A stretch of DNA of 64,000 nucleotides, from assembly GCF_026571515.1 (NCBI RefSeq), contig NW_026861937.1, forward strand, positions 1 through 64,000, given 5' to 3'. Shown piece by piece: positions 2,544 to 64,000 of this stretch (positions are counted from its first letter, which is position 1; each line of letters opens with the position of its first letter). The notes below the pieces were generated by a model, which was given only the letters and a program-made list of their open reading frames with translations, did not search any database and was not told where the DNA came from. The position numbers and the translations under genes are program-made. The DNA is from Ruditapes philippinarum (taxonomy: Eukaryota).

Positions 2544-2741
2544 TGTTGTATATTGTAAACATATGTTTCATCTTAATAATATCTTATACTGTAATGCGCA
2601 TGTCCATTATCTTCCCGCCACTTATATACTTGGGATATTCAGTTATCATTAAACGATAGAACTAGTAACACGTGTCTGTGTTATATATATTACAAGTGCA
2701 CGCTCTGTGTACATATTAATAAATATACCCATAATACAACA
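2544..2741 (+). repeat. 5' LTR (198 bp)
   Basis: Direct repeat of 7084-7281 with TG...CA ends; contains TATATATA and AATAAA. Confidence 0.97.
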
Positions 2742-2754
2742 TGGTGTCAGAAGT
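2742..2754 (+). promoter_or_regulatory. Primer binding site (tRNA-Leu)
   Basis: TGGTGTCAGAAGT immediately after the 5' LTR, complementary to the tRNA-Leu(CAA) 3' end ACTTCTGACACCA. Confidence 0.85.
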
Positions 2755-2820
2755 TAACGGATTATAATTTTACAGTAAAACGCTTTATAATTGTATGTTT
2801 ATAACGGAGTTATAAGAAAT

Positions 2821-3625
2821 ATGGAAAATAATCATCAACAAAATCCGCGTATGGACCGGGATTCGAAGGACTTAAACAGTGCGTTTAAGAGATTCAAAGA
2901 ACATTCAGAATTCATGTTTAAAGGGCCGTTGGCAAGTAAAACGGAAGAAATTCAATGTAACTATTTGATGTTATGGGTCGGTGAAAAGGGCCGACAAATA
3001 TACTAAACATGGGACTTATCAAACGATCAGAGAAAGAAACTTAAATCATATTATGATAAATTCGAAGAATATTGCAAACCAAAAGTAACATTATATACAA
3101 CAAATATCTTTTTAAATCAAGAGCACAACGGGAAAACGAACCGTTTGAACAATTCGTTACAGAACTGAAAACGCTAATCAAAGATTGTGATTATCCTGTG
3201 GGCATGCAGCAAGATCTTATTCGCGACCATATTGTTTTTGGAGTAAGATCTAGCAAAGTCAGAGAAAAACTGATTGTGGAAGGCTCAGATCTAACACTTG
3301 AAAAATGCGTAGATGTTGCTCATACGTACGAATTGAGTCAGTCTCAGGCACAAGCAATCGCTAGCGGATCTACGACATCTCAACAGTCTGTTGATGCGAT
3401 AAATCGACATTGGAGACGCGAGGCAACAGAAGAGATGCACACCAGAGAGACCGGAAGATGCCACCTCATCAGCAACAACAACCACGACGACAACAACGAT
3501 TTGAAGATTATAGAAAAAAATGTGACAGATGTGGAAATAAACATTTCAATTCTAGTGAATGTCCAGCACAGGGACAAACATGTTTCAAATGTGGACGATT
3601 AAATCATTTTTTCAAAACAATGTAA
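2821..3625 (+). pseudogene. gag: Gypsy gag, broken by one in-frame stop (3004) and frameshifts (~3075, ~3400, ~3612)
   Basis: ORF pieces 2791-3006, 3072-3602 and 3410-3625. They include the motif RAQRENEPFEQFVTELKTLIKDCDY...IRDHIVFG and the Mag-type double zinc knuckle CDRCGNKH....CPAQGQTCFKCGRLNHF. Confidence 0.85.
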
Positions 3626-3768
3626 ATTTAAATCTGTGCACGAGTTACATTATGAAGGTGACACTGTGGATTACGTGTGTGAATCTGACGGCGAGAATGG
3701 CCAAGAATTCTTTGTTCACACGGTAAATTCTTTTTTCATCTTCTCCTGATCAAGTTTTTGTAAATGTT

Positions 3769-5718: not shown

Positions 5719-5741
5719 TACCAAAATCATTAAGACAGGAC

Positions 5742-6860
5742 ATGACTAACGCAGTACATGTGGGTCATTTTGGTGTAGAAAAGACGACAAGACTGGCTAG
5801 GGATATAATGTTTTGGCCATCAATGTCAAAACAAATTACAGATTATGTACTTAAGTGCCAGATTTGTTGTAAATATAGAGACTCAAATAAAAAGGAACCA
5901 TTACATCCTCATGATATACCCCAAAGACCATGGCAATATTTATCATGTGATTTATTTACGTGGAATGGTCAAGATTTTATGGTTCTTGTTGACGCTTACA
6001 GTCGATATTTTGAGTTCGACCTATTGACTAGCACTTCTAGTACTTGTATTTTAAGAAAACTTAAGGTACATCTCAGCAGGTTTGGTATCTGTGAGAAGTT
6101 AAAAACTGACAATGGGACATGCTTTACTAGCGAACAATTTCAGAACTTCCTTAAACAATGGAACATTAAACACGAAACTTCAAGTCCCACGCATGCAAGT
6201 TCAAATGGACTTAGTGAAATATATGTTAAAATTGCAAAACGCATTCTTCAGAAAGCTAAGGATGATAATAAAGATCCTGATTTGCCCCTTTTAGAATATA
6301 GGAATACACCACTTAAATGTGGATGGTCACCCGCTCAACTTTTAAAGGGCAGACGCCTCAAGTCGCTTCTCCCAACAACTAACAATCAGCTTCTGCCACA
6401 AAAAGTAAATCATTGTGAAGCAAGAAAGAAAATGGAAGAATTACAATTTATTAGCAAGAATCATTACGATAAAACTGCGCACAAAATGAGACCTCTAAAA
6501 ATCGGAGAATCTGTCAGAATTCGAAAAGATAAGAACTGGGAACCAGCCAAGGTTATAACCCAGCATAATGAACACTCATTTCACGTGCAGACCCCTGACA
6601 GTGCTGTTTATCGTAGAAATCGCCGTTTCCTAAACAAAGCTCCTGAACTATCTGACCTGTCAAAACAAACACAGCAACCATCTAAAGTCGATGAACACCA
6701 GGAATCTATTTTAAGTGAACAAACAAGTCAAAATACCCCTACAGAGTCCCCACTATCTCTTGCAAATGTGCCAGGTAAATCGAAACCATTCGCAATCACT
6801 AGGTCAGGTAGAGAGGTGAAACCGAATAAGCTTTACTGTGGAAAAGACTGGACAAAGTGA
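5742..6860 (+). CDS. Gypsy integrase (C-terminal part of pol)
   Basis: HHCC zinc finger (HVGHFG...CQIC) and DDE core (SCDLF, KTDNG, SNGLSE). The frame joins the RT-RH frame at an A-run at ~5708-5712. Confidence 0.92.
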   Translation: MTNAVHVGHFGVEKTTRLARDIMFWPSMSKQITDYVLKCQICCKYRDSNKKEPLHPHDIPQRPWQYLSCDLFTWNGQDFMVLVDAYSRYFEFDLLTSTSSTCILRKLKVHLSRFGICEKLKTDNGTCFTSEQFQNFLKQWNIKHETSSPTHASSNGLSEIYVKIAKRILQKAKDDNKDPDLPLLEYRNTPLKCGWSPAQLLKGRRLKSLLPTTNNQLLPQKVNHCEARKKMEELQFISKNHYDKTAHKMRPLKIGESVRIRKDKNWEPAKVITQHNEHSFHVQTPDSAVYRRNRRFLNKAPELSDLSKQTQQPSKVDEHQESILSEQTSQNTPTESPLSLANVPGKSKPFAITRSGREVKPNKLYCGKDWTK

Positions 6861-7083
6861 TAACAATTGTTAAATTGTTGAAATAGCCATTAGTAAAACT
6901 GTAAATCAGTGACATTTAGAAAGGATTAAATTTTTTGCTTGTATATATTAATAATACATGTATATTTCAATGTCATTATTAAAAGATCATCAATTATATT
7001 TGATGTACTTATTATAAATAATTGTTTTTTTACAGATTAATTTGAAGTATACTAAATGTGCTTATATTTTTAAACAAGGGGAA

Positions 7084-7281
7084 TGTTGTATATTGTAAAC
7101 ATATGTTTCATCTTAATAATATCTAATACTGTAATGCGCATGTCCATTATCTTCCCGCCACTTATATACTTGGGATATTCAGTTATCATTAAACGATAGA
7201 ACTAGTAACACGTGTCTGTGTTATATATATTACAAGTGCACGCTCTTTGTACATATTAATAAATATACCCATAATACAACA
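7084..7281 (+). repeat. 3' LTR (198 bp) preceded by polypurine tract AAACAAGGGGAA
   Basis: 196/198 identical to the 5' LTR. Confidence 0.97.
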
Positions 7282-7324: not shown

Positions 7325-7350
7325 TTGGAAATTCTAACTTTCGTTTTCGT
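7325..7350 (+). promoter_or_regulatory. Composite NF-kB-like + IRF-E/ISRE motif, cGLR copy 1 (kB half altered to GGAAATTCT)
   Basis: TTGGAAATTCTAACTTTCGTTTTCGT, at a conserved position ~260-300 bp upstream of the ATG in 6 paralogs. The reverse strand reads GAAAACGAAAGT = GAAANNGAAA. Confidence 0.55.
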
Positions 7351-12090: not shown

Positions 12091-14442
12091 AAAATCTATT
12101 TATTTATATTGTTATAAGTTTTTAATTTATTTATTTAATTATTTTTTATTTTAATAGCTAACGAATATTGTACGTGTCATAAAATTAAAATATGTTAATC
12201 TTAAACACAAACCAATGATCGATACGATTGTTTTGTGTATTAAATCAAAAGGTGAACTATGTAGTACAATAAGATATTTGAAACGAGCGATTCAGTCGTT
12301 CAATAATTTAAGTATTTAAACCCATTTAACTACAAGTAAAAGATAGCTAGTCCGATGTAATGATATTTTATTTTATAAATGTTAGCACGCAACTATGATG
12401 TATCTTCAATGCAGATTTAAGTACCACTATTATTAAGCCTTTTGTCTATAGTTGTTATCAATAACATACTGATTTGTTTCAGTTCTTTCTTGTATGAATT
12501 ATAAACAAATATGATTTTAACAATTGGTTAAATAAACACTTCAGGTCATGGGAGGACGCTACTTCAGTTAATTTAATCTATTAGACTGACAAAACATCGT
12601 AATATTAGACACTGTAGAATATAATTTATGGTTAACAGGTTTAATCTGATTGGGTATTTAACAGTTAAAAGTTGTGACTACAAAACATCATTTTAGTTGT
12701 AAAAAATAACAATAAACTTGAAAGAATTGAGTAGCAATAAAGTTATGTATTTCAAATATATCAAATATCATATGTGATATGTCATAAAAGCGGGAATATT
12801 TGGTCAAGGTAAACAAAAACAAGGTAATTATTTTATATGTAAGTCATTTTTGAACGGAACGGAATTAAAATTACAATTAAGAATTCGCGATATAAATAAG
12901 TATATTTATCTATTTCATAATAAAGTGTTGTTTTAAGTTAATATTTATTTTTCTTCCATATTGATGGTATAATAAATTATTTAGATATCAATATTTCTGA
13001 AAAATAGCCATTCTAATACCTCAAGATGGACAACTGTCGACGGCATATCAAATGAATCCACTTTATTTATTTCACAAAGCAAACTTAAAAATAAATGTAA
13101 AAACAAAAACATTTATGATGTATGTATACACATATATAAAACAGAATATTGCTTAAAAATGCAATGAAGTTACTGATCTGTACATGCATGACGACAGGTG
13201 AAGCACGTGGACTTCGTGGACCTCAAAAATAAAGAATATGACGACATTTATATGGGTGTATATTTCTGAATTTCCTTGCTCTTTTGTAGCATTTTTATTT
13301 TATCGTAGAGTAAAAATCATGAATCAAAATCTTAGAAGGCGGCTTATTCCTGAATTATAGATGAATGAGGGAGGGGATAGAAATGTTGCAGACAGGCATG
13401 TCTCAGAGACTGGTTGTCCGCACATTGAATGCTTCCTATAGTGTTTTAAAATAAATGTGGAAACAATTTCCAAATTGAAGGAAGTATAACACATATACAC
13501 AGTGATGATTGTTCTAGGTGCACAATGTTTGCACATGACCGATATATTGTTGATTACGTCCGGTGGTATTGTTTATGTTTAGCAACTTCATAACGAAACA
13601 GATAGCAGAAGGCAAAAATTTAAGTCAACAATATCACAATAAGGGATAGATTTAATAATGCTGGTATAAATGCTAGAGGTCCTGACAAAAAAGAAACAAA
13701 TAAGCTGCTTTGTGAAATACAAGAAAAAATATCATGAAAATGAAACATTGGTCATAGACAAGCTATTTAATTGTTACATGTTTTTTTCATGCATCTCAAG
13801 AATGAATGACCACTGAATATAAAAATGCAGCAATAAAGTGTAGTAAAATTATTTATAATTAAAGCCTTATAGGTTTGACATGCTTGTCAAAATGATAAGA
13901 TAGAGAAAATAAGAATCCCTTAAAAAAGCACAACACGGCAAAATTGAAAATGTTGCAGCCTAGGTTTGATTGAGCCTGTTCATGGACGGTACTGCCAAGT
14001 GCAAACTGCCGTCCTAGCCCACCTAGCACCGGCTAAAGTAGAATTCAGCATCTAACACGACAAAATTGAAAATGATGCAGGCTCGGTTTGATTGAGTCTG
14101 TTCATGGAGTCATTCTTATATTTGATAATCTGGTTTCTGTGACCAAAGTTAAAATAAAATACACCTTTTAATAATTAATAATAAATAAAATATATGTCTA
14201 TATATGTTTAAGAGATATGATTGTAATCACTAAATATATCACTTAGTGTCCAACAAGTATAGTTTGATCTTCCACTAGAGGACGATTATTACTTTCAAAT
14301 GTTCTATGAAAGATTGTAAGATAAGAATCAATTTACAAGTACTGTTTAATTCAGCTCCAAGAAGAATTAATATTTAGTACCTTTTTAGATTGAAATAATG
14401 CCCTTAGTTGATTTGTTAAGTCCCTGATTAAATTTAAACATA

Positions 14443-15281
14443 CGATGGGTTATCCAAAAATTCGTTGACTTTTTAAATATCTTTTGAACATCCACGTGTA
14501 TTGTCATGAAATTGTATCAGCATACAGTGTAGAATATAATTAATACGTTTTGATACGAACATTTAAGTGCGTCAAAAAATAATGGTTTCATATTGCTTTT
14601 AAATAAACACATACACGGCACCCGGCGCTCGGTAGAAAAGCGCAGTTAGTCATCGTATATTTTTTGCTAAAAAACTACTTACTAACTTAGAAAACCCGCT
14701 AAACATCGCATATGTCTTCTGTGATGTCATTTAAGTAATTCTCTAAAATTATGGACGTCATTTCCGTTAATTTTTGTTGAAATCGCCAGAAACGCCGGAC
14801 GACGAAATTGTTTACACCGGGAAAATGACGGAAATGCAGAAATAAGAAAATAGCGTGATCATAAAGTTTTGTTGTAATATGGGAATGACACTAACAAAAA
14901 AAATTGAAAAAGTAAAAAAAAGAAACAGCAGGCGAACAGAGAAAATAAAATTTTACTATCATTAGTGCTTAAGTGTCATCAAATTTAGTGACAAAACATT
15001 ACTTCGTGAAGCAGTAATTGTTATTGAGTGTGTAACGTCGAAGCAGAAGTTGTACGTTAAATATTATGACATTAACGTCAATAACTGTTTGGAGTGCGCC
15101 GCACTCTCTGACATGTGTTAATGTAAAATTAAATATTGTTGTAATATAAGGAGCTACTAACATGCATTTTTCTGTGTTTATTTGTTATTTATTCTTCTAA
15201 GCAGAGTAAGAATTTCAAATCAATATCTCAAATACATTTTACGCAACAAAGAAAGTCCATGAATTTTTGGATAACCCCTCG
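14443..15281 (+). mobile_element. Mariner-derived non-autonomous DNA transposon (839 bp), TA TSD
   Basis: 30-bp TIRs with 27/30 match (CGATGGGTTATCCAAAAATTCGTTGACTTT / AAAGTCCATGAATTTTTGGATAACCCCTCG), flanked by TA. The internal remnant MTEMQK*ENSVIIKFCCNMGMT (~14825) resembles a mariner transposase N-terminus. Confidence 0.85.
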
Positions 15282-15457
15282 TATTTATAACGTGTTTGAA
15301 GGCGTCACTTCCGTGTTGTACTGGGAAAATTTCGCTCGATTTGTATCAAGATATAAAAAGTGTAAAATAAAACAACTACTTTTCTGGTGTTATGAAGAAT
15401 TGTATTAGGGAAAACAGAACATTTTATAAATTATATGAATTTCTATTTTTTCTAAGA

Positions 15458-17554
15458 ATGTCGAGGATACCAGACTACTCTCCTAATTTATCACTTAAAA
15501 TGTCTCAAGTGATGCATGGACTTGGTGTAAATGAGAAGATAGTGATGAAAAGAAGAAGATCATGGCTACTGAATGAATCAATATTAACGTTAATTCAACA
15601 ACTTCTCGGTCATGATAGAAATGGGTTCTTCTTTGGTAGTCAAATAGAAGGTACAACAACTCTTGGATTACGGTCTGACACGGATTTTCTTGAATCTTTA
15701 AACAATATTAATGTGATACCAGACTTGAATGAATGGGAATATTGTAAACATAATTTGTTGATGATACAAGATATTAATGTCTCACCAGGATATTGTTTGT
15801 TACAAATATTACAAGATGATGCTCCACTACCACAAGAAGTCAAAGTTAATGACCATTCCTACAGAGACAGAATGGGGAGAATATTGTTAAAAAATACATA
15901 TTCTTATGGATTGGGAAATAGTGAATTAATAATTAGGAACGGCCCGGCTCATTCTGTACAAGATGTCCCTGGGGCCAAAGATAGTGATTTAGTTATTGCC
16001 TTTCCTTGTAAATTAAGACCAGTTCAAGCAGCGCATTGGTTAAATCAACATAGAGAAGAGCATTGGCCTACAAATGATATGATACAGTACTGTAGTAACA
16101 CGAAATGTTTTGTTGTAGGCGTTGGTAAAACAGGAAGTGTAAATGAAGCATTTGAATGGAGAATATCTACATCATTTGCAGAGAGATGTTTAATGTTTAA
16201 TCTTAACATAACACAAATCAGGTGTTATGTTTTGATGAAAATGATTTTGAAAACATTTATAAATCAAAGATTTCCCGACAGCATTTCAAGTTTCATGTGT
16301 AAAACAGTTTTGTTACATTGCATTTCATGTACAAGATCTGGTGCATGGAACGAAAAAGCCCTCTTAACTTGTCTATCATTTTGTTTATCAACACTTTACA
16401 ACTGTGTTCATCAAGAATACTGTCCTCATTTCTTCATCACACAAAATAACTTGATGGGTGGGCGATTTACACCGGAGACTAAGTCGTTAATACTTGAAAC
16501 TCTTCGATATGTAATCGAAAGTAATGGAAGGGCATTGCTCGAAATTGAATGTGACTGCCTTGGCTTATGTCTTCAGTCAAATTTAAACGGTATTGAACAT
16601 TTTGTACCACCTATAATTTCTGGGCAATTACTAAGAGAAACAGCCCTTCATATAAGTTCAGATTTCAAAGATATCTTATGTGAAATGAATCATTTATCAC
16701 ATCAACCCACGATGCAAAAAATTTTAACAATTATTTCAAATTACCATAATGACAATTTCACAAACATAGATAGAAAAGCTTACCGTTTGATAACATGGTA
16801 TTTATGTAGTACACTTGGATCTGTTCTAGCATCTTTAAACATTAACCAACATGACCATTTTACATACAATAAGGCACTTGAATTCATGGCATTAGGATTT
16901 AACTCCGATGTAGCATCTGGTAAACTGAAACTTGCATCTTTCTTCTATTGTGACGGAGATATTGAGAGGACTGAAATGATCTTGAACAAAACTGAGGAAT
17001 GTTATGATGTTAGTATCGTTGAACCAGTATGTGAGTGTTATAATTTCGAACAGGCAAAAAGAAGAGACAGATTTGACAGGAACTGTTTTGAATCAAATGA
17101 AGAATGCTCTCTGTTTAAATATATAATAGCATCATGTGTCCGGTTTATACGATGTGAAATAAACTGTTGTCCATTAGAACTTCAACATGAAATGTTTAGA
17201 TCAACACAGGAAGACTTTGCTTACAGAAGTGAAGATGATGAATGGATGGACATGGCTGTTGTAGATTCTCTCCCTTACCTCTATTTCATGCAGTACAAGA
17301 CATATTCCCGTCTAGGAAGACAAGATGATAAACAGAGGGCCCTCTCTAATATTGCTAGAACAATTGATGTTGAACCAAATCTCGGACATAGGGAAACAGC
17401 ACTCAATCTTCTAGGACATTGTATGGAAGAAGAGAATAATGTAGAAAATGCATTGAAATGTTATGCGCGTTCCCTTCAGATTAGAGGGAGAAATAATTCG
17501 GCAAAAGTCCATATTTGTAAGCTGTTAAACAAATTGATCAATAACTTGTTGTAA
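15458..17554 (+). CDS. cGLR copy 2, 698 aa, type-A tail followed by a silent in-frame type-B module
   Basis: FGSQIEGTTTLGLRSDTD, DSDLV, EWRISTSFAER, SSFMCKT. Start set at the ATG homologous to the paralogs rather than 15392. Confidence 0.9.
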   Translation: MSRIPDYSPNLSLKMSQVMHGLGVNEKIVMKRRRSWLLNESILTLIQQLLGHDRNGFFFGSQIEGTTTLGLRSDTDFLESLNNINVIPDLNEWEYCKHNLLMIQDINVSPGYCLLQILQDDAPLPQEVKVNDHSYRDRMGRILLKNTYSYGLGNSELIIRNGPAHSVQDVPGAKDSDLVIAFPCKLRPVQAAHWLNQHREEHWPTNDMIQYCSNTKCFVVGVGKTGSVNEAFEWRISTSFAERCLMFNLNITQIRCYVLMKMILKTFINQRFPDSISSFMCKTVLLHCISCTRSGAWNEKALLTCLSFCLSTLYNCVHQEYCPHFFITQNNLMGGRFTPETKSLILETLRYVIESNGRALLEIECDCLGLCLQSNLNGIEHFVPPIISGQLLRETALHISSDFKDILCEMNHLSHQPTMQKILTIISNYHNDNFTNIDRKAYRLITWYLCSTLGSVLASLNINQHDHFTYNKALEFMALGFNSDVASGKLKLASFFYCDGDIERTEMILNKTEECYDVSIVEPVCECYNFEQAKRRDRFDRNCFESNEECSLFKYIIASCVRFIRCEINCCPLELQHEMFRSTQEDFAYRSEDDEWMDMAVVDSLPYLYFMQYKTYSRLGRQDDKQRALSNIARTIDVEPNLGHRETALNLLGHCMEEENNVENALKCYARSLQIRGRNNSAKVHICKLLNKLINNLL

Positions 17555-18734: not shown

Positions 18735-21540
18735 AGACTGGCCTGTCTTTACATTCGTGGCAAAAGCTGACCACTTTCGATTTCAGCAGGCTGGCTAAGC
18801 TCTATACTTGTGGTAGAGGCTGACAACTTTCGGTTTCAGCAGGCTGGCCAGACTCTATACTTGTGGTAGAGGCTGATCACTTTCGATTTCAGCAGACTGG
18901 TCAGGCTCTATACTTGTGGTAAAGGCTGACTATTTTCGGTTACAGTTTGCTTGCCTGGTTCTATACTTGTGGCAGAGGCTGATTACTTTCGGTTTCAGCA
19001 GGTTGACCTTACTCTACACTTGTGGTAGAGGGTGACCAATTTCAGTTTCAGCAGGCTGGTCAGGCTCTTTTATTGTGGTAAATGCTAACCACTTTCGAAT
19101 TCAGCAGTCTGGCCTGGTTCTATACTTGTGGCAAAGGCTGACCACTTTCGGGTTCAGGGGGCTGACCTTGCTCCATACTTGTGGCAAAGGATGACTAATT
19201 TCGGTTTTAGCAGGCTGGCCAGGCCCTATACTTGTGCCAAAAATTGACAACTTTCGGTTTCAGCAGGCTGGGCTGGCTCGATACTAGCGGCAAAGGCTGA
19301 CTACATACGGTTTCATCAGGCTGGCTTGGTTCTATACTTGTGACAAAGGCTGATCACTTTCGATTTCAGTAGACTGGCCAGGTTCTATTCTTGTAGGAGA
19401 GGCTGACCACTTTCGGTTTCAGCAGGCTGGCAAGGCTCTATACTTGTGGTAAAGGATGACCACTTTCGGTATCAGCAGGCTGGCCAGGCTCTATACTTGT
19501 AGCAGAAGCTGACCACTTTCGATTTTAGCGGGTTTGTCAGGCCTTATAATTGTGGTATAGGCTGACCACTTTTGGTTTCAGCAGGCTGGCCTGGCTCTAT
19601 ACTTGTGGTTAAGGCTGACAACTTTCCGTTTTAGCAGTTTGGCCATATCTATTCTTGTAGCAGAGGCTGACAACTTTCGGTTTCAGCAGGCTCGTCAGGC
19701 TTTGAAATTGTGGTAAAGGCTGACCACTTTCGGTTTCAGCAGGCTGGCCAGGCTCTTTACTTGTGGCAGAGGCTGACCACTTTCGGTTTCAGCAGGCTGG
19801 TCAGGCTTTTGATTGTGATAAAGGCTGACGACTTTCCATTTCAGTAGGCTGGCTAGATTCTATACTTGTGGCAGAGGCTGAGCACTTTCGGTATCAGCAA
19901 GCTGACCAGGCTTTATACTTGTGGTAACGGCTGACCTCTTTCAGTTTCAGCAGGTTGGCCAGGCTCTCTACTTGTGGCAAAGGCTGACAACTTTTGGTTT
20001 CAGCAGATTGACCTGGTTCTTTAACAGTTGCAAAGAATGACCAATTCCCATCTCTTATTTAAACAGGCTGACTTGGCTCTTTACTGGTGGTAAAGGCTGA
20101 TAACCTTCGTTTTCAGCAGGCTGGTCAGGCCTTATACTTGTTGCAGAGGGTGACCACTTTCGGCTTCAGCAGGCTGGCCAGGCTCCATATTAGTGGCAAA
20201 GGCTGACTCCTTTCGGTTTCAGCAGACTGACCTGGGTCCATTCTAATGGCAAAGGCTGACTACCTTCGGTTTCAGCAGGCTGGCCTGGCTCCATAGTAGT
20301 GGCAAAGGATACCTATCTTTGGTTTCAGCAGGTTGGCTGGCCCCATATAAATGGGAAAGGCTGGACTATCTTGTTTAGCAGCAGGCTGGCCTGGTCCTAC
20401 TTGGGAAAGATATTATTTTGGTTTCAGCAGGCTGGCCAGGCTTTTATACTTGTGGCAAAATTGACTACTTTCGGTTTCGGCAGGCTCCCCGGTCGATATA
20501 GAGGGAAAGGGTGACTACTTTCGGTTTCAGCAAAGGGTGCCCGGCTCCTTTCTAGGGAGCAAAGGGTGACACTTTTCAGTGGATCAGGCTGGCCTGGTTC
20601 TATACTTGTGGCAATGGCTGACCATTTTCGATTTCAGTAGCTAGGCTGGCCAGGCTCTATACATGTTGCAGAGGCTGACCACTTTCGGTTTCAGCACGCT
20701 GGCAAGGCTCTATACTTGTGGTCAAGGATGACCACGTTCGGTTTCAGCAGGCTGGCCACTCTCTAAACTTGTAGCAGAGGCTGACCAATTTCGGTTTCAG
20801 CAGGCTGGTCAGGCCTTATATTTGTGGTACAGGCTGGCCCACTTTTGGTTTCAGCAGGGCTGGCCCAGGATCTATACTTGTGTAAAGCCGGCAACTTCGG
20901 TCTCAGCAGGCGGCCAGGCTCTTATATACTTGTAGGGCAGAGACTGGACCACTTTCGGTTTCAGCAGCCTGTCCTGTTCTATACTATTAGCAAAGGCAGA
21001 CACTTTCAATTTCAGCAGACTGCCAGGCTCTAATTATACTTGTGGTAAAGGCCGCAACTTTCGGTTTCAGCAGGCGGCCAGGATCATATACTTGTGGTAA
21101 AAGGGCCGGCAACTTTCGGTCTCAGCAGGCTGGCCAGGCTCTATACTTGTTAGCAGAGACTGACCACTTTCAGGTTTCCAGCAGCCTGTCCTTGTTCTAT
21201 ACTTAGCAAAGGCAGACACTTTCAATTTCAGCAGACTGCCAGGCTCTAATATACTTGTGGCACGAGGCTGACCACTGTTGGTCTCAGCAGGCTGGTACAG
21301 GGGCTTTTTAATTGGGAAAAGGCTTATCCACTTTCGATTATAGTAGGCCTGGCAAGGTTCTATAAACTTGTGGCAGAGGTCATTCCTTATTCAAAGCAGA
21401 ATGACTTGCTCCCTTTACTGGTGGTAAAGGCTGGATCACATTCGCTTTTCAGCAGGGCGGGTCAGACTTTTATACTTGTTGGGGCGTTGAGTGACCTTTT
21501 TTTTTTTTTCAGCATGGGCGGGGGGGTGGCTGGGGTTTTA
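18735..21540 (+). repeat. 53-bp minisatellite array 1 (~53 units) with ISRE-like core
   Basis: Consensus GGCAAAGGCTGACCACTTTCGGTTTCAGCAGGCTGGCCAGGCTCTATACTTGT; period verified at 18781/18834/18887. The array is noisy after ~20300. Confidence 0.95.
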
Positions 21541-22667: not shown

Positions 22668-22694
22668 TTGGAAATTCCAAACTTTTCGTTTTCG
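22668..22694 (+). promoter_or_regulatory. Composite NF-kB + IRF motif, copy 3
   Basis: TTGGAAATTCCAAACTTTTCGTTTTCG, followed by an AAG|GTAAGT donor at 22718. Confidence 0.5.
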
Positions 22695-22970
22695 GTTTTG
22701 TACAATTTCAATTTAAGGTAAGTATATTAACTTATTTCCCGTTTTTTTATTTGAAATGTTGAGCCCTGATTTTTAAATAGTTTAAATCATTTATAAAAGT
22801 TGCAATTTATAAATATTTTGGGTTTAAATGTGTCACAATCCATGTTTTACAGGGATCCATTTCAAAGTATAAATTGTTTTTAATTTTTATCGTGCAAATC
22901 TAATCTATTGGTATTAAGAAATACAGAAAATTCTATAAAACAAATGGAAATTTCTGTTTTATTTTTAGGC

Positions 22971-26569: not shown

Positions 26570-26880
26570 TGTGCAGGGTAGCCTAACTCTATACTTGTAG
26601 CGGAGCTGACCTCTTTCAATTTCAGCTGGCTTCCCTTTGTTCTATCTGTTGGAAAAAATGATCACACTCATAAAAAAGGGTTTGGGCCTGGCCTTACGGG
26701 TCAAAGGCTGTTTAAAATTTTTGGGTTTCAGCGGGCACCGGGCTCCAACGGGGGCGAAGGGCTGTCACATTAGAGTTTTCAGCAGGCTGCGTGGCTCTGT
26801 TCTGGTGAAACAGGCTAATCACATCCGATAACAGCGAGCTGGCCTGGTTATATACTGATGACAAAGGTTGATCACTTCGA
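26570..26880 (+). repeat. 53-bp minisatellite array 2 (~6 degraded units)
   Basis: Follows the same CACCACGGATGTGCAG entry sequence; degenerate GCTGA..TTTC..TTTCAGC units. Confidence 0.7.
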
Positions 26881-27840: not shown

Positions 27841-28088
27841 TAAATGAAAGACGTTCTAAAGATATTCGTTTATCATTTTTGATCTGATCAATGGCCAGAA
27901 CCATTATTTAAACCCAATTTTGAATAAAGAAATGAATCTATTTACATTCTCAAAGAGTGTATTAAAGAAAATTCTTCGCTAGAGGCTCGCAATATATAAT
28001 TTCATTCAATTCGTTCAATAAATTATATATTGAAATTACACTAAATCAATATCCTCTAGTTATCGTCTGAGCAAAAAATTTTGTTGTA

Positions 28089-30028: not shown

Positions 30029-30054
30029 TTTGAAATTCCAACTTTCGTTTTCGT
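30029..30054 (+). promoter_or_regulatory. Composite NF-kB + IRF motif, copy 4 (kB half altered to TGAAATTCC)
   Basis: TTTGAAATTCCAACTTTCGTTTTCGT. Confidence 0.55.
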
Positions 30055-33719: not shown

Positions 33720-34478
33720 TGTGCAAGCTGACCTGGCTTTACATTCATGGCAAAAGCTGACCACTTTCGATTTCAGCAGACTGGTCAGGCTCTATACTTG
33801 TAGCAGACGCTGACTACTTTCGGTTTCAGCTGGGTTGCCTGGTTCTATACTTGTGGCAGAGGCTGATAACTTTCGGTTTCAGTAGGCCGGCCAAGCTCAA
33901 TACTTGTGGCAGAGATGGACCACTTTCGATTTCAGCAGGCTGGCTAGCCTCTATACTTGTGGTACAGGCTGACTACTTTCGGTTTCAGCTGGCTGACCTG
34001 GTTCTATACTTGTGGCAGAGGCTGATCATTTTCGGCTTCAACAGGCTGGCCAGGCTCTATACTTGTGGCAGAGGCTGACCTCATACGGTTTTAGCAGGCT
34101 GGTCAGGCGGTATACTTGTGGCGAAGGCTGACCTCTTTCGGTTTCAGCAGACTGGTCAGGCTCTTTAATTGTGGAAAAGGCTGACCACATTCTGTTTCAA
34201 CAGCTCTTTAATTGTGGAAAAGGCTGATCACTTTCGGTGTCAGCAGGCTGCCAGGCTCTATACTTGTGGCAGAGACTGACCACTTTAGGTTTCAGCAGGC
34301 TTGTCAGTCTCTTTAATTGTGGTAACGGCTGACCACTTTCGTTTCAGCAGGCTGGCCTGGTTCTATACTTGTGGCAAAGGCTGACTACTTTCGGTTTCAG
34401 CAGGCTAGCCTGCTTCTATACTTGTGGAAGAGGCAGACCACTTTCGGTTTCAGCAGGCTAGCCAAGCTCTTTACTTGG
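33720..34478 (+). repeat. 53-bp minisatellite array 3 (~14 units)
   Basis: Same consensus as array 1. Confidence 0.95.
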
Positions 34479-37839: not shown

Positions 37840-37865
37840 TTGGAAATTCCAACTTTCGTTTTCGT
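37840..37865 (+). promoter_or_regulatory. Composite NF-kB + IRF motif, copy 5
   Basis: TTGGAAATTCCAACTTTCGTTTTCGT. Confidence 0.6.
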
Positions 37866-41560: not shown

Positions 41561-43555
41561 CTGGCCTGGCTTTATACTTATGACAAAGGCTGACAACTTT
41601 CGGTTTCTGCAAGCTGGCCTGGCTCTATACCTATAGCAAAGGCTAACAACTTTCGGTTTCAACAAGCTGGCCTGACTTTATACTTATGGCAAAGGCTGGT
41701 CACTGTCAGTTTCAGCAAACTGGTCTGGCTCTATACTTATGGCAAAGGCTGGCAACTTTCGGTTTCTGCAAGCTGGCCTGGCTCTATACCTATAGCAAAG
41801 GCTAACAACTTTCGGTTTCAACAAGCTGGCCTGACTCTATACTTATGGCAAAGGCTGGTCACTGTCAGTTTCAGCAAACTGGCCTGGTTCTTTACTTGTG
41901 GCAAAGGCTGACAACTTTCAGTTTCAGCAAGCTGGCTTGACTCTATACTTATGGCAAAGGCTGACAACTTTCGGTTTCGGCAAGCTGGTCTGACTCTGTA
42001 CTTATGACAAAGGCTGATCACTTCCGGTTTCAGAAAACTGGCCTGGCTCCATACTTATGGCAAAGGCTGACAACTTTCGGTTTAAACAAGCTGGTCTGAC
42101 TCTATACTTATGGCAAAGGCTGACAACTTTCGGTTTCAGCAAGCCGGTCTGACTCTATATTTATGGCAATGGCTGATCACTTTCGGTTTCAGCAAGCTGG
42201 CCTGGCTCTATTATTATAACAAAGGCTGTCAACTTTCGGTTTCAGCAAACTGGTCTGGCTCAAAGGCTGACAATTTTCGGTTTCAGCAAGCTGGCCTGGC
42301 TCTATACTTATGGCAAAGGCTGACAACTTTCGGTTTCAGCAAGCCGGTCTGACTCTATGCTTATGGCTTAGTCTAATCACTTTCGGTTTCAGCAAGCTGA
42401 CCTGGCTCAAAGGCTGACAATTTTCGGTTTCAGCAAGCTGGCCTGGCTCTATACTGGTGGCAGAGGCTGACAACTTTCGATTTAGGCAATCTGGCCTGCC
42501 TATACTTATGGCAAAGGCTGACAACTATCGGTTTCAGCAAACTTGTCTTAATCTATACTTATGGCAAAGGCTGACAACTTTCAGTTTCAGCAACCTGGCC
42601 CGATTCTATACTTATGGCAAAGGCTGATCACTTTCGGTTTCAGCAAACTTGCCTAACTCTATACTAATGGCAAAGACTGACAACTTTCGGTTTCAACAGG
42701 CATGCCTGGTTCTATGCCTGTGGCAAAGGCTGATAACTTGCGGTTCCGATGGGCTGGCCTGGTTCTATATGTGCGGTAAGTACTGATCATTTTCGGTTTC
42801 TGAAAGCTGGACTGGCTCTTTACTTGTGGCAAAGGCTAATCACTTTCGGTTTCAGGAGGCTAGCCTGCCTTTATACTGGTTGCAAAGGCTGATCATTTTC
42901 TGTTTCAGGAGGCTAGCCTGCCTTTATACTGGTGGTAAAGACTGATCACTTTCTGTTTCAGGAGGCTAGCCTGCCTTTATACTGGTGGTAAAGGCTGATC
43001 ACATTCGTTTTCAGGAGGCTAGCCTGCCTTATATACTGGTGGTAAAGGCTGATCACTTTCGGTTTCAGGAGGCTAGACTGCCTTTATACTGGTTGCAAAG
43101 GCTGATCACATTCGTTTTCAGGAGGCTAGACTGCCTTATATACTGGTTGTAAAGGCTGATCACTATCGGTTTCAGCAGGCTGGACTGGCTCTTTACTGTT
43201 TGCAATAACTGATCACTTTTTTTTTTTGAAAAGTCAAACCTGGCTCTATCGTAATGTAAATAATTCATCACTTTTGGTTTTGACTAAAGGTTGGACTGGC
43301 TCTTTACTGGTGGCAATAAGTGATCACTTTTTGTTTCAGAAGGCTTGTCTGTCTCTTTCTAAATGGCAATGGCTAATCTATTGCGGTTTCAGCACGCTGT
43401 CGTGACTCAATACTGGTGGCAAAGGCTGGTAACACTTGATTTCAGCAGGATGACTTGTTTCAATACTATTAGAAAAAGCTGATCACTTTCGGTTTCCACA
43501 GGTGGGCATGCCTCTATCCTGGTGAAAAAGGTGGATCACTTTTGGCTTTAGTAGG
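41561..43555 (+). repeat. 53-bp minisatellite array 4 (~37 units, with internal variant subfamilies)
   Basis: Same period and core as array 1. A 159-bp (3x53) duplication is visible at 41607/41766. Confidence 0.95.
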
Positions 43556-49469: not shown

Positions 49470-49495
49470 TTGGAAATTCCAACTTTCGATTTCGT
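49470..49495 (+). promoter_or_regulatory. Composite NF-kB + IRF motif, copy 6
   Basis: TTGGAAATTCCAACTTTCGATTTCGT, plus a second partial ACTTTCGATTT at ~49504. Confidence 0.6.
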
Positions 49496-57199: not shown

Positions 57200-59827
57200 T
57201 TAAGAGGGCTTAATGGTATTGTGGATAGTGTTATATATACTCGTATACATGTATCTATCTTAAATAACATACACGAAAGATATCCGTTTTATATCATTTT
57301 TTTGATTAATCCTACTTTCTTTTTTCTGTACTTACCTACCTACCAACTCACCTGTCACACTTTACACAGATTTTCTTTACCTTACTTAATTAACTAATTT
57401 AAATACCGTAACTAACTAACTAATTTACTATTATAATAGTATTATTGTGCTTTCCTTGCTGCTTGTCTGCATATTATTATTTATTCTCATATGTGTTGAA
57501 TATATGTACTTGTACCGTACATGTTGTTTAAATATCTATGTAATTTATACCGAAATTAATCTATTTATCTATGGAAAAATGCCAAGTGTCTGTTTACTTA
57601 AAACTTCACTGATATCGGTGAATAAAACATGTCAAAAACAATTTCACAAACTTGTGATAAATGATTTTGATTATACAGAATGTTTGCTTAAGATTCATTA
57701 CGAACATTTATAAAGGAAGTCAAAGAAACCCAATGCACTTAATGTGAGTTTAAAGCAATACATTCCTTTTTTTAACGCAGTTATCTTTTTGAAAAACATT
57801 CGTAATCCATCGCAATTGCTATGCTAAATGACGTCGATATTTTCTAGAAAAGGTCCATAAACTGATAGATGAGCTAAAACTATGTAAATGTTTAATTTTA
57901 TATGTGTTTTGAAAATTAAAATATTTATAAACTTTATATTGTTCCAAATGGGAATATTTTACACATTCGTTACCAAAATTAAGTACTTTTGACAAGACCT
58001 TCAAGTATATCAGAATAAACTTAACCTTTTTTATTCATACATGACCATGACCTTCAGTGTCAAATTTTTCAGTTTGCTTGAAATTATTTTCTATAACAGA
58101 CTTAAGCTTTCATATTTATAGATGGGTTGTCTTTGTACTTGGAAACAATAAATGAATAAAACAAAAAACAACAAAAAAAAAACGTAGTTTATTTTAACTT
58201 TTATTTGACCTTGACATTTTAGGTCAAAAAGTGAATTTCGATGAACTGACCAAGTCTTATTTGTGGATTTGATTTGTGATTGAACTAAGAACATTTAAAA
58301 TATAGTGTTATGCATCTTATAAGTGTGCAAATATGACACCACACCGGGGTCACTTATTTGTATATGAAAATATATTTAAGTCGCTTTTGTTTTTCTCAGC
58401 TGTTTGAATGGACACTGCTGTGAATTTTTGATATTCTACTTATTGTATTAATTTTGTATTCAAACACTTTCTTGCGAGATTTCAGATCATTTTTACACCC
58501 TCAATTTCCAGACGTATCTTTTGTTTTGTTACAACGATTCAAAAATCAAAAAGCATTTAGAGTAAAGGTTAGTGATACATGTAAGAATTTACAAATTAAA
58601 AGTGGTCAAGAACGGCGCAACATTAATCAATTAAGTGGTTAATATCATTTTTATAAACTGTCGATTAATAACACTGATTAAATTTAGCCGATTTACCAAA
58701 ATAAAGATGAGCAGGAGCATTTGAACCCAAATTAAGTTTAAAGCGTTTTGCTATAATCATGCAAGGGATTTCTTTATTTTAACACGTATGGAGACAGATT
58801 TAAGAACGAGGACTTCGTGAACCTTGAAAATCAAGATGTTGGCGGAATGCATACAAAGTATGTTTTCATGTATGAATTTATGTGCTTTTGTTTAAATTTG
58901 CAATTTAACGTTTTAAAATGCAATTCGATATAATTAATCAACATCATAGAAGGCGGCTTATGTCTGACGAGCTAAATATGGGAGTATTAATGTTGCATAC
59001 AGGCATGTCTCAGTGGCAGGTTGTCTGCGCCTTTGTGTGTGTCTCACAGTTAAATAAAACTCTTGCACATAACAGATATATTGTTGAGTCGGTCCGGCGA
59101 TATAGTTTCCGGGAAAGTATGCCTAATTTATTAAGAAACAGCTTGCAGGAATATACGAGAACAATAACACAATAAGGAATATATCACGTGATGCTGGTAT
59201 GAATGCTAGCCGTCCTGACAAATAAGAGACGAAATAAGCTATATTGTGAAATAAAAGAAAAATGTCGTCATAAATGAGACATTGTTCTTAGACATGATAT
59301 TTTAGTATTACATAATTTTTATTTTCCATGCATCTCATAACATTTAATTTGTAGAACCACAGAACGATTTATTGAACTTTTTTCTAGCTTCATTGTTCAC
59401 ATCATACTTATATGAGTAATCCAAGAATGATCACTACCAAATTTGACAAAATGTATTATTACCAATGAAGTGTAGTTAAATTATTTATAATAAAATCATT
59501 AAAGATCTGAATTCTTTGTCAAAATGATAAGAATCATTTTAATTTAATTGTTTTTTTATATGAAAGTTCAAAGTAAAATACATGTATAAGTAAGAGAAAT
59601 ATTTAAGAAATAGATTTGAAGTCTCTTTATTTTTAGCATCCAACAATTATAATTTCATCCTCTGAAAATAGCCACCATAGAGCGATTATTACTTTTGAAT
59701 TGTCTATATAAGGTTAAGTTAACAAGTAAGATTTAATTTACAAGTAAGGTTTAATTTCACCTAAATTTAGTACTTTATTGATTCATTATTTAGTATCATT
59801 CAACCTGTCCAATTAAGGTGTAAAGCA

Positions 59828-59853
59828 TTGGAAATTCCAACTTTCGTTTTCGT
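59828..59853 (+). promoter_or_regulatory. Composite NF-kB + IRF motif, copy 7
   Basis: TTGGAAATTCCAACTTTCGTTTTCGT, followed by an AAG|GTAAAT donor at 59876. Confidence 0.6.
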
Positions 59854-60116
59854 TTTGTACAATATTCAATTTAAGGTAAATGTAAATAACTTTATTTCCC
59901 TTTTTATTTGAAATTTTAAGCTTTTATAAATAGTTAAATCATTTATAAACTTTACACTTTATAAATACATTGTTTTAATGTGTCACTTTCGTGTTTGATA
60001 GGACTTAATTTCAAAGTATTAATTGATCTTATTTATCGTAAAAATTATGTTCTAAAGTATTGAATTAAAATCTTAAAAACTTTTTATTTTTAAATAATTT
60101 TCTGTTTTATTTTAGC

Positions 60117-62216
60117 ATGTCGAGAATACCAGATTACGCTCACAATTTATCACCTAAAATGTCTCAAGTGATGGATGGGATTGGTGTTAACGAGAAGATA
60201 GTGATGAAAAGAAGAAGAGCAATGCTACTGAATGAATCACTATTTACGTTACCTCATCAGCTACTCGGTAATGATAAGAATATATTCTTATTCGGCAGTC
60301 AAATAGAAGGTTCTACAACACTAGGATTAAAGTCTGACACAGATTGTCTTATATCTGTGAACATCTATAATGTGATACAAGACTGGAGTGAATGGGAATA
60401 TGGTAAACGTAATTTGTTAATGATACAAGATGAGTATGTCTCACCAGGATATTGTTTGTTACAAATTCTTAGAGATGATGCTCCACTACCAGAAGTAGCT
60501 GAAGTTGATGACAATTCATATAGAGACAGAATGGGGAGAATATTGTTGAATAATACATTTTTAAATGATGTTGGAATTAATGAATTTATTAGACACGGCC
60601 CAGCCCATTCTATACAAGATGTTCCTGGTGTCAGTGATGATGATTTTGTTTTTGCCTTTCCCTGTCATTTAAGACCAGTTCAAGCACGGCACTGGTTAAA
60701 TCAGCATAGAGAGGAGCAATGGCCTACAAATGGTATGATAAAGTACTGTAGTAACACGCAATGTTTTGTTGTTGGAGTTGGGAAAACAGGAAGTGTAAAT
60801 GAAGCGTTTGAATGGAGAATATCCACATCAATTGCGGAGAGATATTTAATGTTTAATCTTAACATAACACAAATTAGATGTTATGTTTTGATGAAAATGA
60901 TCTTGAAAACATTTATAACTCAAAGAATTCCCGACAGCATTTCAAGTTTCATGTGTAAAACAATTTTGTTACATTGTATTTCATTTACAAGATCTGATAC
61001 GTGGAAGGAAAATACTCTCTTTAGTTGTCTATCATTTTGTTTATCAACACTTTACAACTGTGTTCAGAATGAATTCTGTCCTCATTTTTTCATCACACAA
61101 AATAACTTGATGAACGGGCGAATTTCTCCGGAAGCGAAGCCGTTAATACTTGAAATTCTTCGTTATGTGATCGAAAGTAATGGAAGGGCATTACTCGAAA
61201 TTGAATGTGACAACTATGGTTCATATCTACAATTAAGATTAAACGGTTTTATACTACAAAATGCCCATTATATTCCCACTATAATTGCTGGGACATTACT
61301 AAGAGAAACAGCCTCTCACATAAGCGCAAATATCAATCATCTGTTATGTGACATGAATGATTTATCACCAAGACATGCGATGGAAAAACTTTTAACAATC
61401 ATTTCAAATCATCCTAATGACAATTTCACAAACATAGATAGAAAAGCTTATCGTTTCTATACAAAATATTTATGTAATACACTAGGATCTGTTCTAGCGT
61501 CTTTAAACATTAACCAACAAGACCATTTAATTTACAAAAAGGCACTTTCGTTCATGTCATTAGGACTAGACTCCGATGTAGCATCTGGTAAACTGAAACT
61601 AGCATCAATGCTCTTTTGTGCCGGAGAAATTGAGATGACTGAACTGGTCCTGAAAAATATCGAGGAGTGTTATAATCTTAGTGTTGTTGAACCAATATGT
61701 GAGTGTTATGTTTTTAAACAGCCTTTACGAAGAAAAATATTCGACAGATTATGCTTTGAATCAAATGAAGAATGCACACTGCTAAAACATATAACAGCAT
61801 CATGTGTCTGTTTTATACGATGTGAAATAAACTGTTGCCCATTCGAACTTCAACATGAAATGTTTAGATCAACACAGGAAGACCTTGCTTACAGAAGTGA
61901 AGATGATAAATGGATGGACATGGCTGTTGTAGATTCTCTCCCTTACCTCTATTTCTTGCAGTACAAGACATATTCCCGTCTAGGAAGACAAGATGATAAA
62001 CAGAGGGCTCTCTCTAACATTGCCAGAACCATTGATGTTGAACCAAATCTCGGACACAGGGAAACAGCACTCAATCTTCTAGGACAGTGTATGGAAGAAG
62101 AGAATAATGTAGAAAATGCTTTTAAATATTATGCGCGTTCCCTTCAGATAAGAAGACGAAATAATTCGGCAAAAGTCCATATTTGTAAGCTGTTAAACAA
62201 ATTGATCAATAACTAG
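60117..62216 (+). CDS. cGLR copy 7, 699 aa, type-A tail followed by an open in-frame 44-codon type-B module
   Basis: FGSQIEGSTTLGLKSDTD, DDDFV, EWRISTSIAER, SSFMCKT, CPHFFITQNNL, TPR-like tail. Confidence 0.9.
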   Translation: MSRIPDYAHNLSPKMSQVMDGIGVNEKIVMKRRRAMLLNESLFTLPHQLLGNDKNIFLFGSQIEGSTTLGLKSDTDCLISVNIYNVIQDWSEWEYGKRNLLMIQDEYVSPGYCLLQILRDDAPLPEVAEVDDNSYRDRMGRILLNNTFLNDVGINEFIRHGPAHSIQDVPGVSDDDFVFAFPCHLRPVQARHWLNQHREEQWPTNGMIKYCSNTQCFVVGVGKTGSVNEAFEWRISTSIAERYLMFNLNITQIRCYVLMKMILKTFITQRIPDSISSFMCKTILLHCISFTRSDTWKENTLFSCLSFCLSTLYNCVQNEFCPHFFITQNNLMNGRISPEAKPLILEILRYVIESNGRALLEIECDNYGSYLQLRLNGFILQNAHYIPTIIAGTLLRETASHISANINHLLCDMNDLSPRHAMEKLLTIISNHPNDNFTNIDRKAYRFYTKYLCNTLGSVLASLNINQQDHLIYKKALSFMSLGLDSDVASGKLKLASMLFCAGEIEMTELVLKNIEECYNLSVVEPICECYVFKQPLRRKIFDRLCFESNEECTLLKHITASCVCFIRCEINCCPFELQHEMFRSTQEDLAYRSEDDKWMDMAVVDSLPYLYFLQYKTYSRLGRQDDKQRALSNIARTIDVEPNLGHRETALNLLGQCMEEENNVENAFKYYARSLQIRRRNNSAKVHICKLLNKLINN

Positions 62217-63786: not shown

Positions 63787-64000
63787 ATGTGCAGGCTGGC
63801 CTGGTATTACATTCGTTGCAAAAGCTGATCACATTCGATTTCAGCAAGTTGGCCAGGCTCTATATATGCACTTTCGGTTTCAGAAAGCTGACATTACTCT
63901 ATACTAGTGGCAATGACTGATCACTTTCGATTTCAGCAGCAGGCATGGCTTGATACTTATGGCAAAGTTTGACCACTTTCGATTTCAGCAAGTTGGCCTG
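63787..64000 (+). repeat. Start of 53-bp minisatellite array 5 (runs off the window)
   Basis: GGATGTGCAGGCTGGCC entry followed by ACTTTCG(G/A)TTTCAG units. Confidence 0.85.

What the first reader, a model, noticed from the sequence alone, without database searches (positions are those of the whole stretch)
59828..60116. Conserved kB + IRF composite element directly before a 5'UTR intron in six paralogs
Seen: TTGGAAATTCCAACTTTCGTTTTCGT, or a close variant, at 7325, 22668, 30029, 37840, 49470 and 59828. About 22 bp later comes AAG|GT, then a 234-249 bp intron ending 1 nt before the ATG in the intact copies, with an ETS-like CACTTCCGTG inside in several. The IRF half is kept in all six, while the kB half is altered in copies 1 and 4. 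Known: GGAAATTCC is a Rel/NF-kB-type site and GAAANNGAAA an IRF site, and adjacent kB/IRF sites typify antiviral promoters. Inference: these sensors are ISG-like inducible genes with paralog-specific tuning, and the TSS lies at or near the module.
Basis: partly seen in the sequence, partly recalled or inferred. Interest (0 to 1): 0.7.

Follow-up and report, generated by a model that had tools for sequence, protein, structure and literature searches.

The report
Interferon-type switch on clam sensor genes
Six of seven side-by-side clam genes for cGAS-like immune sensors carry the same short DNA element beside a spliced leader exon; it matches a vertebrate interferon-response site and likely lets antiviral signals switch the sensors on, but induction is untested.

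Summary
The window is a tandem array of seven Mab21/cGLR-TPR genes, most likely of the Manila clam. Six carry the module 21-22 nt before a GT donor and a 234-249 bp intron. The seventh (g2) has lost module and donor to a TIR element but keeps its ORF. Contigs of one RNA-like run support the intron in paralogs or alleles, place the IRF half inside the spliced leader exon, and show a second, distal leader exon. The start is therefore upstream of the module and is unmapped. The IRF half is conserved above background (1 of 14 columns variable against 40%, p=0.008). The kB half is not (2 of 9, p=0.23), so paralog tuning by kB changes is unsupported. The whole-module signal falls to p=0.17 after scan correction. 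Two additions: the IRF-kB spacing equals the IFN-beta PRDI-PRDII junction (14 of 16 bases), and a 53-bp minisatellite 3' of five genes holds 59 intact ISRE cores in 116 units. Best reading: an ISG-like, IRF-responsive proximal promoter, as in vertebrate cGAS or mouse Irg genes. Induction and binding are untested.

The parts
59828..59853 (.). kB-like + ISRE module of g7
   Evidence: 3 of 26 columns variable over five clean copies
59830..59838 (.). 9-bp Rel/NF-kB-like site, centre of a 6-1-6 palindrome (59828-59840)
   Evidence: intact in 4 of 6 copies; not conserved above background; Rel assignment is from recalled consensus plus the IFN-beta match
59840..59851 (-). ISRE, GAAANNGAAA plus GT
   Evidence: 0 of 10 critical columns vary over five copies
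59794..59875 (+). Proximal untranslated leader exon; 3' end supported, 5' end unknown (a conserved TTTAG ends at 59793, so it could be an 82-nt internal exon)
59876..60115 (+). 240-bp 5'UTR intron ending 1 nt before the ATG
   Evidence: X1 joints 59861>60111 and 59863>60110; X1 depth 1.26 in 59920-60111
59412..59475 (+). Region homologous to a distal alternative leader exon that one paralog contig splices straight to the coding exon (3' end inferred)
   Evidence: X1 joint 59443>60114, one contig, depth 12.1, side 32
60117..62216 (+). g7: single-exon ORF, 699 aa, Mab21/cGLR NTase plus helical TPR-like C-terminus
7325..7350 (.). Module of g1 (kB altered); ORF 7608-9701
15458..17554 (+). g2: intact ORF without module or proximal donor
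22668..22696 (.). Module of g3 with homopolymer insertions; 5' half of g3 frameshifted, probably assembly error
30029..30054 (.). Module of g4 (kB altered); ORF 30326-32422
37840..37865 (.). Module of g5; ORF 38122-40218
49470..49495 (.). Module of g6 (ISRE spacer change); ORF 49758-51851
18757..21379 (.). 53-bp ISRE-bearing minisatellite 3' of g2: 51 units, 24 intact cores; ends 1.3 kb before the g3 module
26590..26880 (.). Degenerate remnant of the minisatellite 3' of g3: 7 units, 1 intact core
33748..34477 (.). Minisatellite 3' of g4: 14 units, 9 intact cores
41561..43530 (.). Minisatellite 3' of g5: 39 units, 22 intact cores
63790..64000 (.). Start of the minisatellite 3' of g7, cut by the window end: 5 units, 3 intact cores
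2544..7281 (+). LTR retrotransposon (198-bp LTRs 99% identical, 5-bp target duplication) inserted 43 bp upstream of the g1 module
14434..15290 (.). TIR element (39-nt arms, 87%) standing where g2's module, donor and 5' intron would be

Best explanation
The module lies at the spliced leader exon of six cGAS-like receptor genes, matches an ISRE, and is likely an IRF-binding site that would make these genes inducible by the clam's interferon-like antiviral response. Shown: sequence, position, conservation of the IRF half, a cGAS-like fold with the GS/DxD/D residues, and splicing of the leader in paralogs or alleles. Inferred: a clam IRF, activated by dsRNA, virus or cyclic dinucleotide signalling, binds the two GAAA half-sites at the proximal promoter, at or within some tens of bases downstream of the start; a Rel dimer may bind the abutting palindrome as an optional co-input; more sensor is made, closing a positive-feedback loop as for vertebrate cGAS. 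A distal leader exon about 400 bp further up offers a second route that bypasses the module and may explain how g2 keeps an intact ORF without it.
For: IRF half: 1 of 14 columns variable and 0 of 10 critical ones, against 0.40 in intron and flank and 0.38 at 4-fold sites; p=0.008 and 0.006. The only change is in the free spacer. The module is the most conserved 26-nt window (0.954; best of 614 overlapping windows elsewhere 0.923). The extended ISRE occurs 5 times outside the minisatellites, always in the module (expected 0.8 in 57.8 kb); the composite arose in 0 of 40 simulations. Two X1 contigs join the module exon to the coding exon, and intron depth is near zero. The IRF-kB junction equals IFN-beta PRDI-PRDII in order and spacing, 14 of 16 bases (compared by eye). 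Oyster and scallop IRFs bind or activate ISREs. An oyster cGAS is induced 13-fold by poly(I:C). Human cGAS has two ISREs and is an ISG.
Against: No induction or binding data. Corrected for picking the best window, whole-module conservation has p=0.17; five related copies give little power, and gene conversion is not excluded. The kB half is not conserved above background (p=0.23). No outgroup promoter could be fetched. RNA support rests on single contigs of one run, from paralogs or alleles laid at 86% identity, not from g7 itself; no start site was seen. g2 lost the module yet keeps an intact ORF. Under 1% of canonical ISREs are IRF3-bound in mouse cells. In Nematostella single IRF knockdowns did not reduce cGAMP-induced genes.
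Confidence: 0.55

Rival explanations
1. No special function: the module recurs only because the genes are recent tandem duplicates, and an ISRE-like string happens to sit in a slowly diverging patch.
For: Non-coding flanks are about 80% identical throughout. The best-window correction gives p=0.17. Other motif-less AT-rich blocks reach 0.91-0.92. g2 lost it with no visible ORF decay.
Against: The chance of an extended ISRE is about 0.8 per 57.8 kb, yet it sits 24 nt before the leader donor. All 10 critical columns are invariant while the spacer varies. Same junction geometry as IFN-beta.
Confidence: 0.2
2. The site binds an IRF-family or similar factor but sets basal or cell-type expression, or represses (IRF2-like or Blimp-1-like, the latter recalled), with no antiviral induction.
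For: Contigs of the family are abundant in X1 (depth 127-638 over the ORF, summed over paralogs), and nothing shows that run was stimulated. Oyster IRF1 and IRF8 also act in haemocyte proliferation, and IRF2 competes at ISREs.
Against: Abutting kB-like site in IFN-beta geometry. Precedent of inducible cGAS in oyster and human.
Confidence: 0.15
3. The module lies in an internal 82-nt cassette exon (59794-59875) of transcripts that start further upstream; its conservation reflects splicing or RNA-level constraint.
For: A TTTAG with a T-rich upstream stretch is kept in 6 of 6 module copies, 24-36 nt before the module. One X1 contig covers 59822, upstream of the module. A distal exon exists and can join the coding exon directly.
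Against: No listed joint enters 59794 from upstream (15 rows of the joint table plus table 5c; 4 rows and 385 loose ends not shown). Exon sequence 5' and 3' of the module varies at 0.30 and 0.29 per column, against 0.07 in the IRF half. An exonic ISRE could still act as DNA.
Confidence: 0.1

Closest known systems
Human cGAS promoter (two adjacent ISREs; cGAS as an ISG; PMC5934468 passage)
   Same: ISRE at the 5' end of a cGAS-family sensor; predicted positive feedback.
   Different: One ISRE abutting a kB-like site; animal without known type I interferon; tandem array; induction not shown.
Mouse Irg (p47 GTPase) clusters (PMC1297648 passages)
   Same: Tandem paralogs, ORF on one long 3' exon behind untranslated exons, alternative leader exons (Irgd, Irga6), ISRE near the leader.
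   Different: Irg promoters pair ISRE with GAS, vary in arrangement and had no kB sites; their induction is shown. Here the pairing is with a kB-like site at fixed spacing.
IFN-beta enhanceosome PRDI-PRDII junction (probe table of PMC10308904; PMC4743414 abstract and passages)
   Same: GAAAGT followed directly by a 10-bp kB-type site, same order and spacing, 14 of 16 bases equal.
   Different: One IRF dimer site instead of four IRF sites, no ATF-2/c-Jun site noticed, kB half altered in 2 of 6 copies, located at or inside the leader exon. No homology is implied.
cGLR family with TPR fusion (bioRxiv 2023.02.22.529553 passages)
   Same: Mab21 fold, acidic triad, bivalve expansion, C-terminal TPR-like helices.
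   Different: Ligand and product untested; nothing in the passages seen concerns promoters.
Oyster CgcGAS (PMC8218723 passages)
   Same: Bivalve Mab21 protein; induced 13-fold by poly(I:C), as predicted here.
   Different: Zinc-finger architecture, 590 aa; no cis-element described in the passages seen.

Membership tests
ISRE-driven (ISG-like) promoter | Canonical GAAANNGAAA | tested here: met
   6 of 6 module copies; consensus as in PMC6954429
ISRE-driven (ISG-like) promoter | Site conserved above neutral background | tested here: met
   1 of 14 columns variable, p=0.008 with the site taken as given; five related copies only
ISRE-driven (ISG-like) promoter | Close to the transcription start | tested here: inconclusive
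   Inside or at the spliced leader exon; no start seen; a distal leader also exists
ISRE-driven (ISG-like) promoter | IRF binding and induction by dsRNA, virus or cytokine | not testable with these tools
   Run labels are coded; no treated/control pair available
kB/IRF composite element (IFN-beta PRDI-PRDII type) | IRF site directly abutting a kB site in fixed order | tested here: met
   Spacing identical in five clean copies and equal to IFN-beta
kB/IRF composite element (IFN-beta PRDI-PRDII type) | Both halves under constraint | tested here: inconclusive
   kB half 2 of 9 columns variable, p=0.23; low power
kB/IRF composite element (IFN-beta PRDI-PRDII type) | Cooperative IRF and Rel action | not testable with these tools
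   Needs EMSA and reporters
5'UTR intron | GT-AG ends and spliced RNA | tested here: met
   5 of 5 intact copies; two X1 contigs from paralogs or alleles and near-zero intron depth; not shown for g7 itself
cGLR (Mab21 nucleotidyltransferase sensors) | cGAS-like fold | tested here: met
   PF20266; profile hits to cGAS and cGLR1, E 1.5e-14; model pLDDT 89.5, Foldseek top hits cGAS and cGLR
cGLR (Mab21 nucleotidyltransferase sensors) | GS plus acidic DxD...D active-site residues | tested here: met
   D74 and D76 invariant, G60, S61 and D176 at 90% or more in 68 sequences; present in the six intact ORFs
cGLR (Mab21 nucleotidyltransferase sensors) | Ligand-activated cyclic dinucleotide synthesis | not testable with these tools
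   Needs biochemistry
Homotypic ISRE-cluster enhancer (minisatellite) | Core conserved above the rest of the unit | tested here: inconclusive
   Substitution rate 0.065 against 0.150, rank 1 of 53 rotations, p=0.006; distinct alleles p=0.05; singletons p=0.16, rank 13
Homotypic ISRE-cluster enhancer (minisatellite) | Confined to immune loci; enhancer activity | not testable with these tools
   No whole genome held for this window

The most novel reading that the evidence does not exclude
The duplicated unit carries two IRF inputs: an IFN-beta-type IRF-kB junction at the leader exon, and a copy-number-variable 53-bp ISRE minisatellite (7 to 51 units in the complete arrays, absent behind g1 and g6) just past the transcript end that acts as a dosage enhancer on flanking paralogs. 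Enhanceosome-like grammar and a tandem-repeat 'volume knob' would then tune an expanded cGLR family in an animal without known interferon.
Probability: 0.15. Interest if true: 0.75.

Novelty: new member of a known kind. Interest (0 to 1): 0.45.

Why it matters
Bivalves mount an interferon-like response without a recognised interferon, and their IRFs have mostly been tested on mammalian ISRE reporters. This locus offers a candidate native target element with built-in natural variants: intact copies, two with an altered kB half, one without the module, and one with a retrotransposon 43 bp upstream. It makes the question of how the bivalve cGLR expansion is regulated directly testable. The principle itself (an ISRE on a cGAS-family gene) is known from vertebrates.

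Tried and rejected
No whole genome is held, so no genome-wide counts. Run search: no RNA holder listed on record; this is no evidence either way. Runs X22 and X23 are labelled RNA but behave like proximity-ligation DNA (74-76% of laid reads run on unlike, loose ends begin or end with GATC at about 0.45 agreement, intron and intergenic DNA covered); I dropped both as RNA evidence. X24 gave 29 reads, none over the leader. Only g7 (58000-63750) was laid; the other genes and the minisatellites were not. Outgroup promoters: the metagenome scan gave 1 locus from 491 pattern matches, a bacterial-looking false positive; viral and prokaryote scans gave none. g3 was left out of the conservation statistics for its indels and g2 for lacking the module. 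ETS-like site: intact in 3 of 6 module copies, rejected as a core part. No conserved TATA box upstream of the module (by eye). NFAT5/TonE, STAT/GAS and HSF readings of the palindrome were rejected by eye against recalled consensus. RefSeq isoform P0005 has an N-terminal extension whose three best matches fall on the module (scores 32, 31, 27; two control extensions reached 26-28): a weak hint that the module is in an annotated mRNA, not counted as evidence. Four look-ups in earlier findings returned nothing. The mussel poly(I:C) paper does not mention cGAS or Mab21 in its main text; its supplements were not read. The shrimp STING preprint was not relevant.

Full report
Locus. The window holds seven head-to-tail paralogs with single-exon ORFs of about 698 aa: g1 7608, g2 15458, g3 about 22970 (5' half frameshifted), g4 30326, g5 38122, g6 49758, g7 60117. 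All six intact ORFs hit Pfam Mab-21_C. The nearest named relatives are Ruditapes philippinarum proteins at 77-80% and Mercenaria proteins at up to 59%; the window's paralogs are 71-85% identical to each other, so the source is probably the Manila clam (inference). A profile of 68 family members hits cGAS and cGLR1 structures at E 1.5e-14. The AlphaFold model (pLDDT 89.5) matches cGAS and cGLR folds, with a helical C-terminal part. The GS/DxD/D residues are conserved. TPR-fused cGLRs and their bivalve expansion are known (bioRxiv 2023.02.22.529553, passages). The TPR label for the C-terminus rests on the helical pattern and on JGI names; Pfam gave no TPR hit.

Observation. The module is at all six stated places, followed 21-22 nt later by a GT donor and an intron of 234-249 bp that ends 1 nt before the ATG in five of five intact copies. 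GAAANNGAAA is kept in 6 of 6; GGAAATTCC in 4 of 6. The odd copy at 22668 lies in a stretch with 72 indels (32 of homopolymer type) that stops near 24360, against 10-11 in other pairs, which suggests assembly error. In g1 an LTR retrotransposon with 99% identical LTRs sits 43 bp upstream of the module.

Conservation. Over the five clean copies (g1, g4-g7; g2 and g3 left out), 3 of 26 module columns vary, against 0.37 in the intron core, 0.42 in the upstream flank and 0.38 at 4-fold sites: p=0.0017, base-matched 0.0004. The module is the best 26-nt window (0.954; best of 614 overlapping windows elsewhere 0.923). If it was picked as the best window, the corrected p is only 0.17. Split in two, the IRF half varies at 1 of 14 columns (p=0.008), that one in the free spacer, and at 0 of 10 critical columns (p=0.006). 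The kB half varies at 2 of 9 (p=0.23). So the IRF site shows constraint and the kB site does not; two changes in nine columns are compatible with drift, and 'paralog-specific tuning' has no support. Outside the minisatellites the extended ISRE occurs five times, all in modules, against 0.8 expected; an ISRE-kB composite arose in 0 of 40 Markov simulations. These five are one evolutionary event. No outgroup DNA could be obtained.

RNA. I laid four runs on 58000-63750 at 86% identity, so paralogs and alleles also count. X22 and X23 look like proximity-ligation DNA and X24 has 29 reads; none of these informs on the leader. X1 (contigs, RNA by guess) has depth 127-638 over the ORF, 14.1 in 59728-59919, 1.26 in the intron bin and 0 in 59536-59727, the pattern of spliced RNA. 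Two contigs join the module exon to the coding exon: 59863>60110 (depth 6.1), whose five extra letters fit a g5-like exon end and the predicted junction, and 59861>60111 (depth 28.3), whose 13 extra letters are a variant of the exon end, with an acceptor perhaps 5 nt upstream. In the second, the 25-letter short side most likely spans 59837-59861, which puts the ISRE inside the spliced exon. Another contig (17.8) covers 59822, upstream of the module. A third joint, 59443>60114 (12.1, one contig), links a distal exon ending near the equivalent of 59475 straight to the coding exon. Thus the intron is supported for the family, the start lies upstream of the ISRE, and there are two leader routes. 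Each joint is one contig of one run, none is provably from g7, and contigs cannot show starts. A TTTAG kept in 6 of 6 copies ends at 59793, so the module exon could be internal; no listed joint enters it from upstream, but 4 joint rows and 385 loose ends were not shown.

Geometry. On the minus strand the ISRE's final GAAAGT is followed directly by a 10-bp kB-type site. The human and mouse IFN-beta probes in PMC10308904 (Table 1 passage) have GAAAGT followed directly by GGGAAATTCC; 14 of 16 bases agree with the clam copy (compared by eye). I recalled the likeness first and then checked it. Both motifs were chosen for resembling these consensus sites, so only the equal order and spacing is informative, and it is a single coincidence.

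Minisatellite. Of 51 extended ISRE matches in the window, 46 lie in a 53-bp tandem repeat that starts 1.2-1.6 kb after the stop of g2, g3, g4, g5 and g7, beyond the X1 coverage for g7; none was found behind g1 and g6. Arrays hold 51, 7, 14, 39 and at least 5 units, with 59 intact cores in 116 units. The eight core columns change at 0.065 per unit against 0.150 elsewhere and 0.178 in the spacer, rank 1 of 53 rotations, base-matched p=0.006 (three ungapped frames gave p=0.0002-0.019). Measures less inflated by array amplification are weaker: distinct alleles p=0.05, singletons p=0.16. This is suggestive only, and the repeat's genome-wide distribution is unknown.

Mechanism. Most likely the ISRE binds a clam IRF at the proximal leader and makes the genes inducible, with the kB-like palindrome an optional co-input (0.55). 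Background from papers, all seen as passages: oyster IRF2 and IRF8 activate ISRE and IFN-beta reporters (PMC5557890); oyster and scallop IRFs bind ISRE (PMC13524488); oyster cGAS rises 13-fold after poly(I:C) (PMC8218723); human cGAS has two ISREs (PMC5934468); oyster ISG homologs respond to virus and dsRNA (PMC5869526); mouse Irg genes share the architecture (PMC1297648). Against: under 1% of canonical ISREs are bound by IRF3 in mouse cells (PMC6954429), and single IRF knockdowns did not blunt the cGAMP response in Nematostella (PMC8713801). Rivals are plain paralogy (0.2), basal or repressive IRF action (0.15) and an internal exon under RNA-level constraint (0.1).

Novelty. An ISRE on a cGAS-family gene is a known kind; this is a new member. 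I found no description of cis-elements at bivalve cGLR genes in the listings of nine searches. The one search for an ISRE minisatellite required all five terms and returned 0. The library lacks most subscription journals, where bivalve promoter studies often appear, and no supplements were read. Interest 0.45.

Noticed in passing
window 18757-21379, 26590-26880, 33748-34477, 41561-43530, 63790-64000: 53-bp minisatellite with an ISRE-consensus core in each unit, 1.2-1.6 kb 3' of five of seven genes; copy number differs between paralogs; core modestly more conserved than the rest.
   Followed up: partly
window 2544-7281: Young LTR retrotransposon with RT, RNase H and integrase ORFs in different frames, inserted 43 bp upstream of the g1 module; it separates the module from its distal flank.
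   Followed up: partly
window 14434-15290: 857-bp TIR element replacing g2's module; it contains overlapping ETS-like and CRE-like motifs near 14750-14835 (recalled consensus), a possible substitute promoter.
   Followed up: partly
window 22960-24360: Dense homopolymer-type indels confined to the 5' half of g3; probably an assembly artefact, not a pseudogene.
   Followed up: partly
window 62091-62340: After g7's stop lies a second copy of the last TPR-like coding stretch; a 138-nt skip 62091>62230 in reads and a contig matches paralogs (g3, g5) that use the other C-terminus.
   Followed up: no
window 27638-27849: Isolated fragment of the family's 3' coding end, a remnant of a further copy.
   Followed up: no
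window 55125-56090: 146-bp tandem repeat, about 7 copies, probably part of a common repeat family.
   Followed up: no
window 59917-59955 and 59474-59506: Two AT-rich blocks nearly as conserved as the module (0.92 and 0.91), one in the intron and one just after the distal exon end; no motif assigned.
   Followed up: no
window 60113: Some paralogs or alleles carry three extra letters before the acceptor, giving tandem acceptors.
   Followed up: no
runs X22, X23: Labelled RNA-seq but behave like GATC proximity-ligation DNA libraries.
   Followed up: no
window 13889-14107 and 45132-45313: A short repeated insertion inside g2's upstream flank that recurs between g5 and g6.
   Followed up: no
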